31,645 nt of DNA from a virus. Taxonomy: Duplodnaviria; Heunggongvirae; Uroviricota; Caudoviricetes. The DNA is taken from the IMG/VR virus record IMGVR_UViG_3300045988_013781, one strand, 5' to 3'. Position 1 is the stretch's first letter, and the number at the start of each line of letters is the position of its first letter. The position numbers are program-made. Shown here piece after piece: positions 1 through 3,000 of this stretch.

Positions 1-3000
1 CGGTGCCCCCACACAGCCCACCATAGAATAGGTGCGCTTTACACATAAAAAAACCGCTTATGCGGCATATGTGCCTCTGTAGTAATCCGGGAGACCAATC
101 CCGGCACTGGCAAAATCCAGTGCCCGATTACTATGGCACAAGAGGAGTGCGATGTAAATTTACCGCAAAGGTAATAATAGACACAGGTGGATATTAAAAT
201 CAACCATATTTGGTTAATGCGTGTAAAAGAGCCAGCAGCGAGAAATTGTGCCGCGACGTAAAATAACGAGCATCTGCTGGCTTACAACCAGCGATGTTTC
301 AAATTTGTCACTACTATCAACGTGCCATTCCACGGCGCAGAACTTTATGTTGTCAATCACAACGGCGAACCGTACACCCCAATGAAACCTATCGTTGAGG
401 GAATGGGTCTAGACTGGAAATCTCAACATAAGAAGATTTCTCAACGCTTCTCGAAGGGTATGGTGGAAATCACCATACCTTCTGCCGGTGGGGTGCAAGC
501 CATGATTTGTATGGCTTTACGAAAATGAAGCAGTGGTTTAAAACCTGCATTGTGAAAATCACAATGCAGCTTCCTGGGGATGAACAGCGCCGTGAGATTA
601 TTTGTTTGGCACTTCGCAAACTTGCAGGTTAGCTGCAAACCATCAGCCCAATGAATCCTATCGCTTGCATGTAGTCACCTATTTATTTTTTAGCTTTTCA
701 TCCATAGCAAATTTCGTTGCTAAACTTTCACCATCTGATTTAAGCCTTCCAATAAATTTCCGCTTACCGTCTTGAGAGGAATTTAAATAGTATATATTTG
801 ATTCAGCAATCTTTTGTATGTACGACTCGCATGACACAACCGAAGCTTTGGATATAGAATCAACACTTTCTCCTGTCTTAGCGTATTTTACGGCCTGCCC
901 TTTTATACATCCAAAATATTCCATTGTATGCTTTTTAGAATCCTCCAGTGTTTCCCCATTTTTAGGCTGAATCATTAACGGTGAGGTAGTATCTGCAAAA
1001 GATTTTACAACTAAAAGCATAAGAATAATCATTAATATAATTCTGTTCATATTACTTCCCTAGCATGAACTGCGATGGTGGAATCAGAAATTCGTTACCC
1101 TGCTCACGCTCAACACGGCGCTGATAACGCTCAAGAGAGCCAGGGTCAAGGGCATCTTGTATCCGGTTCAATATTAAACCATTCATCGCCGTACGAAGCC
1201 AGAACACGTTGAGGAATGGCGTATTGTCAAGTGCCGTGCGATACCAGTCACCCAAATCTGCATCCCCTCTCGTGGTCTGCTGGAGCAGCGTGATAATGCT
1301 GTCAGCGTTCGATGCTGCCGGCCCCATTAGCGACGTAACCGGCCCGGCCCCCATGCGGTTGACCTCGCCAAACATGAAGTCACCCAAGATGCCAAGACCG
1401 CCCCCCTGAGATGCGGCTGCGAGAAACGTCTTGGCATCTGCCGGGCGCGGTGTTTGCCCTTTCAGCATGAGTTTTGACTGCATGGAGATATAACCAAACA
1501 TAGTCGCCCAGACAAAGAGGTTTGCAGCACCAAGGAAAGCCCCCTTCCCGTTACGCAGCAGCGCATTCGTCAGCGATCCGGTTTTCGACTCACCAAGCCC
1601 AGCAGGAATATAACCACGCCCGAATACTTCGCGTCCTAGTACGTTCTGCATGAAGCTTGCAGTGAACGATTTGTACTGACCAGCGAATCGTATTGCTTCC
1701 CCAGCCACCGTTCCTGGCACCGTGCCCATCTTCATAAACGCCTGCGTGCGATCGCCAGGCTCTGACATGGCGATATTCAGGCGGTCAAGGATGTAGCCGC
1801 GCAACTGCCCTTCCAATTGATCGCGTGCGTCAGCGATAGCGCGCTGCGTTGGCTTGATCCCCTTACTCTCTACATAACCGGCAATCACTTCGTCAGGCAC
1901 GCCGCGGATGCCGCTGGTCGTCATGAACTTACGACCTTCGCTATCGGCCATGTCCATGTTGCGAAAAATTTCCCACTCACGTTCGCCAATACCGTGCAGA
2001 TCCAGCACGCGTCGCAGGTCTTCCGGTAGCCGCGCATGAGGCTGGTCAGCATTCTTTGCAAGCCAGTTGGTTATCATCATGGCGTTACTGTTGCGACCGC
2101 TCTCGGTCCAGAAGTTCATGAGGTTGTACTTAAAGAAAAGCTGCTGCGCGCGACCAAGTTTTCCATTCAGCGTGTCATCACCAGATATGCGCCGGATGAT
2201 TTCCTGCGTCATGGAGTCGGAATAAACTCCGATAGAGGAAAGGATCTCTTTCTGCTCCGCGCTGTTGTAACGCGTGAAGCGGCCTCTCATAGCACCAAGC
2301 AACGCCTGCATAAAATTCTGCCCTTGGTAGCGCATCTCGGTAGCGGCGATAGGCACGTCGTTAAACGATGAGATTACCGCGCCACCAAGCTGGCTCATAC
2401 GCAACCAGCCGCGTACAGCCGCCGACGCATTGGCCCAGCCTACGCTGCCAGGAATATTTAGCGAGCCGTCAACCTGCGGCATTACGGTACGGTTAATGCG
2501 ACGCACCTTCGTCATGTAGTCAGCCAACGCTGCCGGTCTTCCGGATTTGCTGATATCTTCAGCAATGGTGTCCGTCAGGTACTTAAACATGTTCTGTGGG
2601 TTAGTGCCCAATACGCGCATCATGCCCGTTGTGCGGGCAGCGCTGTTTAAGCCACCAAACAGCGCCTCTCGCAGGCTGCCGGTGCCGAATTGCTGGTTGT
2701 ACTCGTGCCACGAGATACCATCTTTGAAGTGCAAAATTCGCTCTTGGCTGGCGCGTTTAGCTGCGTTCGCCGATCCCTTAAAGCCATTCATCCAATCGGG
2801 CTTTTCAGATGTAAGATGCACGCCGGAAGCCAGCCCGTTATAAATGTTACGCATGAACTGCTCGCGGTCAGCCACGCCGTCAAAAGTGCGCTCATCAAGG
2901 CGCGGGAGAATAGCATTTCGCCATGCTTCATAACCTGCGGCGCGGATCTTCATGATGTCGTGTGACTGGCGCACTATATAGCCCGGCTCTTTGCGTATCC

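What the first reader, a model, noticed from the sequence alone, without database searches (positions are those of the whole stretch)
322..632. Repressor lacks a self-cleavage domain while the only antirepressor gene is a remnant
The repressor (25962-26546) has two HTH domains and no LexA/CI-type peptidase domain that I can see. Such repressors are typically inactivated by an antirepressor rather than by RecA-stimulated autocleavage. The only antirepressor-like sequence here (322-528) is truncated at both ends: it starts at GTG with no upstream in-frame ATG and stops after ICMALRK, with a related peptide (ICLALRKLAG) displaced into another frame at 525-632. If this was the cognate antirepressor, the prophage may be locked in lysogeny, or it depends on an antirepressor outside the window or supplied in trans.
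Basis: inference. Interest (0 to 1): 0.55.

Follow-up and report, generated by a model that had tools for sequence, protein, structure and literature searches.

The report
Dead antirepressor fragment; real switch off-window
The broken antirepressor gene is real but is a decayed passenger; this E. coli prophage uses an already described repressor/small-antirepressor switch whose antirepressor genes lie just beyond the left edge of the window, so the finding is ordinary.

Summary
The sequence facts hold. Bases 322-528 encode only part of a P22-type antirepressor N-terminal domain. A second, overlapping fragment follows at 516-649. The repressor (25962-26546) has two HTH-like domains and no peptidase domain.

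The interpretation mostly does not hold. The window is an incomplete phiV10/epsilon15-type (Uetakevirus) E. coli prophage, cut inside the element at its left edge. Its repressor is 100% identical to that of the viable phages phiV10 and ZX5. It aligns over its full length with Salmonella phage SPC32H Rep (PDB 5D50), which is reported to be inactivated by an 86-aa LexA-controlled antirepressor.

In every relative examined, that small ant gene with a CTGT-N8-ACAG LexA box lies about 3.1-3.4 kb left of window position 1. The window also holds a promoter-like site, the isrK RNA and the first 28 nt of a C4 antisense RNA. These read leftward into an intact BRO-N antirepressor gene that starts 108 nt outside the window, as seen in a contig 100% identical over the 1084 nt of the window it overlaps.

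The P22-type fragment is a scarred pseudogene in a hypervariable slot, not the cognate antirepressor. "Locked in lysogeny" is not supported. This is known biology plus a window-edge artefact.

The parts
1..28 (-). First 28 nt of a C4 antisense RNA gene, cut by the window edge. The rest of the RNA and the BRO-N antirepressor gene it controls lie outside the window.
   Evidence: Rfam C4 (RF01695), 78.6 bits, at L001 20028-19941 and L017 3025-2938. Window 1 = L001 20001 = L017 2998.
47..123 (-). isrK / c4-a1b1 leader RNA with an intrinsic terminator. It is the first element of the leftward antirepressor operon.
   Evidence: Rfam isrK (RF01394), 56.8 bits, above the gathering score of 50. Fold z-score -4.35. 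Terminator at 66-53.
130..158 (-). Sigma-70-like promoter (-35 TTTACA at 158-153, TG-extended -10 CATAGT at 135-130) that would place the transcription start at about the isrK 5' end (123).
   Evidence: Consensus scan. The promoter role is inferred from its position relative to isrK.
160..174 (.). Operator-like inverted repeat TTACCGCAAAGGTAA abutting the -35 of the isrK promoter. It is the same motif as at the rep/cro promoters.
   Evidence: Motif TTACC-N5-GGTAA: 12 copies in the window against 0.5 expected; 0 of 100 shuffles reach 12.
311..526 (+). P22-type ant pseudogene, allele A fragment (equivalent to CUS-3 Ant residues about 10-80 of 307). It has no start codon or ribosome-binding site. 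The TGA at 526-528 is created by the junction.
   Evidence: 96.8% nucleotide identity to CUS-3 ant. Alignment A1. Pfam P22_AR_N E=6.8e-21.
516..526 (+). 11-bp microhomology TTTACGAAAAT at which allele A and allele B are joined. This gives an out-of-frame partial duplication of roughly 30 codons.
   Evidence: The overlapping BLAST segments 311-526 and 516-649 share these bases. Alignment A1.
516..649 (+). P22-type ant pseudogene, allele B fragment (equivalent to Ant residues about 48-90), carrying a TGG>TAG nonsense codon at 630-632. Homology ends at 649, a deletion junction.
   Evidence: 96.3% identity to CE0007a (L003 6427-6560). tblastn against TL-2011b Ant residues 48-92, 71%. Alignment A1.
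679..1050 (-). Neighbouring 123-aa ORF with a hydrophobic N-terminus and no family assignment. It lies on the far side of the 649 junction.
   Evidence: Annotated 'hypothetical protein' in PF9285.
25962..26546 (+). Prophage repressor Rep, SPC32H/phiV10 type. It has an N-terminal HTH DNA-binding domain and a C-terminal HTH_3-like domain, and no S24 peptidase.
   Evidence: PDB 5D50_A E=4e-42 over residues 1-190. 100% identical to Rep of phiV10, ZX5 and phiv142-3. Pfam.
25577..25807 (-). Cro-like first gene of the lytic (leftward) operon, divergent from rep.
   Evidence: PHROG 35, E=8.7e-13. Position relative to rep.
25844..25906 (.). Operator copies in the rep-cro intergenic region (25844-25858 and 25892-25906). 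The first overlaps the cro-side promoter-like site (-35 at 25861-25856, -10 at 25838-25833).
26604..26680 (.). Two operator copies (26604-26618 and 26666-26680) flanking a TTGACA/AATCAT promoter-like site of the early operon downstream of the rep terminator.

Best explanation
The window is a phiV10/epsilon15-type (Uetakevirus) E. coli prophage integrated at guaA. In close relatives, about 8 kb of prophage lies beyond the window's left edge; the source genome itself was not found.

Main lysis-lysogeny switch. It is the SPC32H type. A non-cleavable two-domain repressor, Rep (25962-26546), holds the lytic promoters through TTACC-N5-GGTAA operators. DNA damage removes LexA from a box in the promoter of a small (85-aa) antirepressor gene. 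That gene sits next to the tailspike gene, about 3.1-3.4 kb left of window position 1. The small Ant then binds Rep and takes it off the DNA.

Second layer. Relatives carry one or two BRO-N proteins whose C-terminal about 84 residues are homologous to the small Ant. Each is expressed from a P1 immI / Gifsy-1 isrK-type cassette: promoter with a Rep-type operator, then isrK, then C4 antisense RNA, then the antirepressor gene. The window contains the promoter-like site, isrK and the first 28 nt of C4 of one such cassette. Its BRO-N gene starts 108 nt outside the window.

The P22-type ant sequence at 311-649. It is a decayed passenger in the hypervariable slot between the last internal-virion-protein gene and the tailspike. 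Its 5' end, with the start codon, has been replaced. Two different alleles are fused out of frame at an 11-bp microhomology. One carries a nonsense codon. The remaining C-terminal about 215 residues are deleted. It plays no part in induction.

Shown here: the homologies, the anatomy of the fragment, the RNA motifs, the LexA boxes, and the gene content of relatives. Inferred: Rep-operator binding, LexA control, and Ant-Rep binding in this phage; these rest on homology with SPC32H.
For: Rep:
- Full-length match to SPC32H Rep, PDB 5D50_A, E=4e-42.
- No S24 domain.
- 100% identical to Rep of the viable phages phiV10, ZX5, phiv142-3, PAS61 and EC.W1-9.
- ZX5 lysogens release 10^7 PFU/ml spontaneously, and its BRO-N ORF4 promotes lytic growth when overexpressed (PMC9782041).

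Small Ant:
- The 85-aa ORF in PF9285 (L001 16645-16902) matches SPC32H Ant, 5D50_E, E=1.6e-47.
- A perfect box, CTGTATATTTATACAG, lies 37 nt upstream of its ATG.
- Gene and CTGT-N8-ACAG box are intact in all 10 E. coli-phage relatives examined and in SPC32H.
- The gene is complete in 64 of 65 IMG/VR loci.
- Its position matches ant in SPC32H and the homologous ORF in phiV10.
- Rep homologues (37 phage records) and small-Ant homologues (35 records) fall in the same organism groups with largely overlapping accessions.

Window truncation:
- In PF9285 (98.9% identical over window 1-17798) the prophage continues left through two BRO-N genes, a YafO-like toxin gene, the tailspike, holins and a lysin to the host gene yfgI.
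- IMG/VR contig L017 is 100% identical to window 1-1084. Left of the window it has a complete C4, an intact 230-aa BRO-N gene, a second isrK-C4-BRO-N cassette and the last 37 codons of the small ant.

Control RNAs:
- isrK lies in the window; C4 and a1b1 are found in L001 and L017.
- The C4 loop CCUUUGUAG is complementary to CUACAAAGG over the BRO-N Shine-Dalgarno sequence.
- BRO-N C-termini are 37% identical to the small Ant and share PHROG 450 with it.

Operator motif: 12 copies against 0.5 expected, sited at the rep/cro and early-operon promoter-like sites and at 160-174.

Fragment anatomy.
Against: - The exact source genome of the window was not found. The genome-contig scan was negative. 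The best matches are 98.9-99.5% identical over long stretches, and 100% only over 1084 nt. The presence of the small ant left of THIS window is therefore inferred from relatives.
- L017 ends, or is stored only, from inside the small ant gene, so its LexA box is not seen.
- Neither LexA control nor Ant-Rep binding has been tested for the E. coli phages. Window Rep and the Salmonella Uetakevirus Reps share only about 42% identity.
- The primary SPC32H papers could not be read here. Their content is taken from citing papers and from my own recollection.
- The operator assignment rests only on over-representation and position.
Confidence: 0.85

Rival explanations
1. One reading: the P22-type Ant was the cognate antirepressor of this repressor, and its decay has left the prophage locked in lysogenic repression.
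For: The fragment is the only antirepressor-like coding sequence inside the window. It is clearly inactivated. Rep has no cleavage domain.
Against: - Phages with the identical Rep, such as phiV10, are viable and show no match to the P22_AR_N fragment: their match to window 1-1100 covers only bases 1-164.
- The cognate partner of this Rep family is the 86-aa Ant seen in the co-crystal 5D50.
- That gene with its LexA box, and BRO-N antirepressors, are intact in all relatives.
- The structural, replication and recombination ORFs in the window are uninterrupted.
Confidence: 0.03
2. The source prophage is truly truncated at or near the window's left edge by a deletion, rearrangement or IS event. 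It would then have lost the small ant, BRO-N, tailspike and lysis genes and be a defective, non-inducible remnant.
For: The source genome was not identified. The window stops inside the element. Some IMG/VR contigs of this family are short or partial.
Against: - The edge falls in the middle of a C4 RNA gene with no sign of a junction.
- The sequence up to the edge is 100% identical to L017 and 99.5% identical to PF9285 over bases 1-1100, and both continue into intact antirepressor genes.
- The right end of the window coincides with the start of the integrase ORF (int lies next to guaA in PF9285). I read both ends as choices of window extraction rather than biological ends; this is inference.
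Confidence: 0.07
3. The truncated fragment still does something, for example as a 68-aa N-terminal-domain peptide translated from the GTG, or as a transcribed decoy or antisense partner of the divergent isrK promoter region.
For: Stand-alone P22_AR_N-only ORFs of about 120-130 aa recur in related prophages (L002, L003; PHROG 14366 profile of 122 aa).
Against: - There is no Shine-Dalgarno sequence before the GTG, and no promoter-like site on the + strand upstream of it.
- The ORF stops inside the domain, at profile position 73 of 115.
- The stop codon is made by an illegitimate junction.
- The truncation point differs between relatives: about 80, 100, 140, 220 and 280 residues.
- NCBI's annotation pipeline marks the copies examined (PF9285, TUM9803, CE0007a) as pseudogenes.
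- This exact junction occurs in only 2 of 5426 complete E. coli genomes and 3 IMG/VR contigs.
Confidence: 0.04

Closest known systems
Salmonella phage SPC32H Rep/Ant antirepression switch (Kim & Ryu 2013 J Virol; Kim et al. 2016 PNAS; PDB 5D4Z, 5D50)
   Same: Rep is a full-length homologue (E=4e-42). Relatives carry an 85-aa Ant about 87-89% identical to SPC32H Ant. A LexA box sits in the ant promoter. The ant gene lies in the same position next to the tailspike gene. Both belong to the same virus genus.
   Different: Window Rep is only about 42% identical to the Salmonella Uetakevirus Reps, so immunity specificity probably differs. The E. coli lineage has inserted about 3 kb of extra modules between ant and the internal-virion-protein gene: isrK-C4-BRO-N cassettes, a YafO-like toxin gene and the P22-type ant fragment. 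As a result, ant falls outside this window.
Escherichia phages phiV10 and vB_EcoP_ZX5 (Uetakevirus)
   Same: Rep is 100% identical. They share the guaA attachment site with the close relative PF9285, in which int lies next to guaA (PMC9782041). They also have the small ant, an isrK leader and a BRO-N 'anti-immunity'/anti-repressor gene.
   Different: phiV10 shows no match to the P22_AR_N fragment. Accessory genes in the variable slot differ.
P22-type antirepressor Ant and the immI region (arc-ant-mnt), e.g. CUS-3 ant and TL-2011b arc-ant
   Same: 311-526 is 96.8% identical to CUS-3 ant. TL-2011b carries an intact arc-ant pair (315-aa Ant) in the same slot of a related phage.
   Different: Here only residues about 10-80 and about 48-90 of roughly 307 survive. 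There is no start codon, no C-terminal domain and no arc or mnt gene. It is a pseudogene.
P1/P7 immI (c4 antisense RNA controlling icd-ant) and the Gifsy-1 isrK-orf45-anrP operon
   Same: The order is leader with a1/b1 (isrK), then C4 RNA, then an antirepressor gene whose ribosome-binding site is complementary to a C4 loop. IsrK-dependent translation of the antirepressor-like AnrP is documented in Gifsy-1 (PMC4825925). A repressor-type operator sits at the cassette promoter; I recall P1's C1-controlled Op51 as a parallel, which was not checked here.
   Different: The downstream gene is a BRO-N protein fused to a small-Ant-like C-terminal domain. No icd-like ORF was examined. Only the promoter-like site, isrK and 28 nt of C4 lie inside the window.
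LexA-controlled antirepressors of Gifsy/Fels prophages and Tum of coliphage 186
   Same: The logic is the same: a non-cleavable repressor, with SOS sensed through LexA repression of an antirepressor gene (PMC7380047).
   Different: The small Ant is, as I recall from the abstract of Kim & Ryu 2013, described as structurally distinct from those antirepressors. I did not test this.

Membership tests
SPC32H-type Rep/Ant switch (Uetakevirus) | Repressor of about 195-200 aa with an N-terminal HTH DNA-binding domain and a C-terminal (about 92-198) oligomerisation/Ant-binding domain, homologous to 5D50 chain A | tested here: met
   phmmer against PDB: 5D50_A E=4e-42 over residues 1-190; 5D4Z (Rep 92-198) E=4e-20.
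SPC32H-type Rep/Ant switch (Uetakevirus) | Small (about 86 aa) Ant homologous to 5D50 chain E, encoded next to the tailspike gene | tested here: met
   Met in all relatives: PF9285 E=1.6e-47; 10 of 10 loci; 64 of 65 IMG/VR loci; last 37 codons in the 100%-identical contig L017. Absent from the window itself, because in relatives the gene lies about 3.1-3.4 kb left of window position 1.
SPC32H-type Rep/Ant switch (Uetakevirus) | Small ant present in the very genome the window was taken from | not testable with these tools
   Source genome not found. The best matches are relatives.
SPC32H-type Rep/Ant switch (Uetakevirus) | LexA box overlapping the ant promoter | tested here: met
   CTGT-N8-ACAG lies 37 nt upstream of the ant ATG in every relative and in SPC32H. 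By my inspection, the box lies between a TTGATA-like -35 and the -10.
SPC32H-type Rep/Ant switch (Uetakevirus) | Rep is not cleaved on SOS induction, and Ant binding releases Rep from DNA | not testable with these tools
   This is biochemistry. It is known for SPC32H only, from the literature.
LexA/lambda-CI-type self-cleaving repressors | C-terminal Peptidase_S24 domain (Ser/Lys dyad) | tested here: not met
   No S24 hit at E<=1. The whole length is accounted for by the SPC32H Rep alignment.
P22-type antirepressor Ant | Full-length protein of about 300 aa: P22_AR_N plus a C-terminal domain, with a start codon and ribosome-binding site | tested here: not met
   Only profile positions 4-73 and 39-76 of 115 are present. 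There is no in-frame ATG. Nothing homologous beyond Ant residue about 90.
P22-type antirepressor Ant | immI regulators (arc, mnt) adjacent | tested here: not met
   No arc or mnt next to the fragment. The upstream DNA is the divergent isrK promoter region. Both are present in CUS-3 or TL-2011b.
P1 immI / Gifsy-1 isrK-type antisense-controlled antirepressor cassette | isrK / a1b1 leader RNA | tested here: met
   RF01394, 56.8 bits (gathering score 50) at window 123-47. RF03163 just below its gathering score in L001.
P1 immI / Gifsy-1 isrK-type antisense-controlled antirepressor cassette | C4 antisense RNA downstream of the leader | tested here: met
   RF01695, 78.6 bits in L001 and L017, spanning the window edge. 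Only 28 nt lie inside the window.
P1 immI / Gifsy-1 isrK-type antisense-controlled antirepressor cassette | C4 loop complementary to the ribosome-binding region of a downstream antirepressor gene | tested here: met
   CCUUUGUAG is complementary to CUACAAAGG over the BRO-N Shine-Dalgarno sequence, read directly from the sequence. The BRO-N proteins match PHROG 130 'anti-repressor Ant', E=4e-51 and 5e-56.

The most novel reading that the evidence does not exclude
The Uetakevirus prophages of E. coli may run a two-tier antirepression circuit.

First tier: the SOS/LexA-controlled small Ant removes Rep.

Second tier: removing Rep would also open Rep-operated promoters (TTACC-N5-GGTAA next to the -35). 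These drive isrK-C4-controlled BRO-N proteins whose C-terminal domain is a copy of the small Ant. That would give a positive-feedback latch, or an anti-immunity weapon against co-resident phages of the same Rep type. The two cassettes carry different C4 specificities.

The 6-nt loop inversion in the window's isrK hairpin could tune this second tier. None of this concerns the P22-type fragment itself.
Probability: 0.25. Interest if true: 0.4.

Novelty: already known. Interest (0 to 1): 0.12.

Why it matters
It matters mainly as a caution. An apparent "missing antirepressor" came from a window that stops inside the prophage, and the nearest annotated-looking candidate was a decayed passenger gene. 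For annotation it is useful to know three things. phiV10-type E. coli prophages carry the SPC32H Rep / small Ant switch. The small ant is usually labelled "hypothetical protein". The slot between the internal-virion-protein gene and the tailspike accumulates antirepressor modules, both intact and decayed. No open question is advanced by the finding itself.

Tried and rejected
- Finding the exact source genome. An exact-match scan of genome contigs with the 52-nt junction found nothing. Six contigs encoding the identical 849-aa protein were 98-99.5% identical, none exact. IMG/VR gave one contig that is 100% identical, but only over 1084 nt, and it stops inside the small ant.\n- LexA boxes near the fragment or the isrK promoter in the window. 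There are none. CTGT-N8-ACAG hits in the window are at chance level (12 against 11 expected) and none lies in 1-700 apart from a 1-mismatch hit inside C4. I first wondered whether CACTGG-N6-CCAGTG at 104-121 was a LexA-like box. The spacing is wrong, and it is the isrK 5' hairpin.\n- A cryptic peptidase domain in Rep. None found.\n- Other antirepressor-like ORFs in the window. None by tblastn or PHROGs.\n- A simple frameshift in ant. Rejected in favour of a two-allele junction.\n- Reading the primary SPC32H papers (PMC3807360, PMC4983836). They are not held.
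Full report
**What is at 322-632**

The ORF at 322-528 (GTG start, 68 aa) matches Pfam P22_AR_N over profile positions 4-73 of 115 (E=6.8e-21). It also matches PHROG 524 "anti-repressor Ant" (E=1.6e-33). The short ORF at 507-632 matches positions 39-76 of the same profile and PHROG 14366 (E=1.9e-14). The two peptides therefore cover overlapping parts of one domain. They are not a gene split by a frameshift.

DNA comparison gives the anatomy:
- **Allele A.** Bases 311-526 are 96.8% identical to the 5' part of ant of the P22-like phage CUS-3 (307 aa). 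Upstream of 311 the CUS-3 start codon region is replaced by unrelated sequence. There is no in-frame ATG back to the stop at 259-261, and no Shine-Dalgarno sequence before the GTG.
- **Allele B.** Bases 516-649 are 96.3% identical to a different allele of the same gene found in E. coli CE0007a, and are 71% identical at protein level to TL-2011b Ant residues 48-92.
- **Junction.** The two alleles share the 11 bases TTTACGAAAAT (516-526). The join duplicates roughly 30 codons out of frame and creates the TGA at 526-528.
- **Further damage.** Allele B carries a TGG>TAG change at 630-632, and its homology stops at 649. Everything from Ant residue about 90 to the end is missing.

This exact arrangement occurs in 2 of 5426 complete E. 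coli genomes and in 3 IMG/VR contigs. Other relatives carry the gene cut at other points, and the three copies examined are annotated as pseudogenes. The fragment is real and is dead.

**What the window is**

It is an E. coli prophage of the phiV10/epsilon15 type (genus Uetakevirus). Genes for T7-gp14-like core proteins, Bbp16 cement, portal and terminase run leftward. The closest complete genome is E. coli PF9285, 98.9% identical over window 1-17798. There the element sits between guaA (integrase side) and yfgI.

The right end of the window coincides with the start of the integrase ORF. The left end stops inside the element. In PF9285 about 8 kb more prophage follows on the left: a BRO-N gene, a YafO-like toxin module, a second BRO-N gene, an 85-aa ORF, the tailspike, two holins, an endolysin and a spanin-like gene. 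Six further contigs encoding the identical 849-aa neighbour protein all show an 85-aa ORF in this stretch, and most also carry one or two BRO-N genes.

**The repressor and its real partner**

The repressor (25962-26546) gives only HTH-type Pfam hits and no Peptidase_S24. It aligns over residues 1-190 of 194 with the repressor of Salmonella phage SPC32H (PDB 5D50 chain A, E=4e-42). Its C-terminal half aligns with the separately crystallised Rep(92-198) (5D4Z). It is 100% identical to the repressors of phiV10, vB_EcoP_ZX5, phiv142-3, PAS61 and EC.W1-9, all viable temperate phages.

According to the literature, SPC32H Rep is not removed by cleavage. Upon LexA self-cleavage an antirepressor is made that inactivates it by protein-protein interaction (Kim & Ryu 2013, as cited in PMC7380047). 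A tetramer of Ant binds two Rep dimers and breaks the DNA-binding tetramer (PMC9638917). I could not read the two primary papers.

The evidence that the 85-aa ORF of the relatives is this Ant:
- It matches 5D50 chain E, E=1.6e-47, at about 87-89% identity.
- In PF9285 the box CTGTATATTTATACAG lies 37 nt upstream of its ATG. By my reading it falls between a -35-like TTGATA and the -10 region.
- A CTGT-N8-ACAG box at the same place and an intact gene are present in all ten E. coli-phage relatives examined and in SPC32H.
- 64 of 65 IMG/VR loci fetched through a 70-nt ant probe hold the complete gene.
- The gene lies next to the tailspike, as ant does in SPC32H and the homologous ORF does in phiV10.
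- Rep homologues and small-Ant homologues fall in the same organism groups, with largely overlapping accessions (37 and 35 records).

In window coordinates the gene would lie at about -3355 to -3098.

**What the left 300 bases of the window are**

On the minus strand, Rfam finds isrK at 123-47 (56.8 bits, gathering score 50). In PF9285 a complete C4 antisense RNA (78.6 bits) spans the window edge, so that window 1-28 is its 5' end. A promoter-like site (-35 at 158-153, extended -10 at 135-130) would start transcription at the isrK 5' end.

Downstream of C4, 108 nt outside the window, a 230-aa BRO-N gene begins. Its Shine-Dalgarno region, CUACAAAGG, is complementary to the C4 loop CCUUUGUAG. 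This is the P1 immI (c4-ant) design, and the design of the Gifsy-1 isrK-orf45-anrP operon, in which IsrK governs translation of an antirepressor-like protein (PMC4825925).

The IMG/VR contig L017 is 100% identical to window 1-1084. To the left it shows the complete C4, the intact BRO-N gene, a second isrK-C4-BRO-N cassette on the other strand and the last 37 codons of the small ant. The stored sequence ends there.

Both BRO-N proteins match PHROG 130 "anti-repressor Ant" (E=4e-51 and 5e-56). Their C-terminal about 84 residues are homologous to the small Ant (PHROG 450; 37% identity). In ZX5, which has the same Rep, overexpression of its own BRO-N protein (ORF4) lowered lysogeny by about 1000-fold (PMC9782041).

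**Operator motif**

The inverted repeat TTACC-N5-GGTAA occurs 12 times in the window against 0.5 expected; none of 100 shuffles reached 12. Its positions:
- Two copies in the rep-cro intergenic region. One overlaps the cro-side promoter-like site.
- Two copies flanking the promoter-like site of the early operon behind rep.
- One perfect copy at 160-174, touching the -35 of the isrK promoter.
- In PF9285, further copies in front of the second cassette and, with one mismatch, upstream of the small ant promoter.

I infer that this is the Rep (and/or Cro) operator, and that the BRO-N cassettes are also under Rep control. This is inference from position only.

**Verdict**

The specific idea that the P22-type fragment was the cognate antirepressor is not supported, nor is the idea that the prophage may be locked in lysogeny.

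The cognate system is a known one, and its antirepressor genes lie just beyond the window in every relative. Phages with the identical repressor and no match to the P22-type fragment are viable. The window's structural, replication and recombination ORFs are uninterrupted.

The residual uncertainty is that the window's own source genome was not found. A real truncation at the left edge cannot be excluded. I put it at about 7%.

The P22-type fragment is best read as debris in a hypervariable slot that exchanges antirepressor modules. TL-2011b still has an intact arc-ant pair there.

Noticed in passing
window 111-116 (isrK 5' hairpin, stem 104-121): Within window 1-1100 the only differences from PF9285 are a SNP at 181 and an exact reverse-complement flip of the 6-nt hairpin loop: CAAAAT here, ATTTTG in PF9285, TUM9803 and CE0007a. 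This looks like a hairpin-templated loop inversion. It lowers the Rfam isrK score from 74.7 to 56.8 bits. L017 shares it.
   Followed up: partly
window 160-174, 17198-17212, 17815-17829, 20748-20780, 23543-23619, 25507-25521, 25844-25906, 26604-26680: The inverted repeat TTACC-N5-GGTAA occurs 12 times against 0.5 expected. Copies sit at the rep/cro and early-operon promoter-like sites, but also near the small-terminase gene start, upstream of the portal-side genes and between replication genes. It is probably the Rep/Cro operator. The sites inside the late region are unexplained.
   Followed up: partly
L001 16645-16902, 17218-17928, 19200-19892 (outside the window): The LexA-controlled small Ant is homologous to the C-terminal domain of both C4-controlled BRO-N proteins (PHROG 450; 37% identity). 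One prophage therefore carries up to three proteins with the same putative Rep-binding domain under two different control logics.
   Followed up: partly
L001 16985-17169 (+) versus L001 20123-19941 (-): The two isrK-C4 cassettes have different loop/target sequences: CCACUUAG pairing with CUAAGUGG, and CCUUUGUAG pairing with CUACAAAGG. These look like two distinct antisense specificities within one prophage.
   Followed up: partly
window 17535-17611 (+) and 17762-18682 (+): A tRNA-Arg(TCT) gene and, next to it, a 306-aa plus-strand ORF (PHROG 4780, unknown function) sit between the terminase and portal genes. This segment (about 17800-18750) has no counterpart in PF9285.
   Followed up: no
window 679-1050 (-): A 123-aa ORF with a hydrophobic, signal-peptide-like N-terminus and no family match lies directly after the last internal-virion-protein gene. 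It is conserved at about 99% identity in a number of other E. coli genomes.
   Followed up: no
window 29258-29557 (+) and 29538-30200 (+): A PerC-family transcriptional activator and an MT-A70-type DNA methyltransferase are encoded in the early operon next to the integrase and excisionase genes.
   Followed up: no
L001 18059-18884 (outside the window); TL-2011b gp44: A YafO-like toxin gene, with a small upstream ORF, is embedded between the two antirepressor cassettes in several relatives.
   Followed up: no
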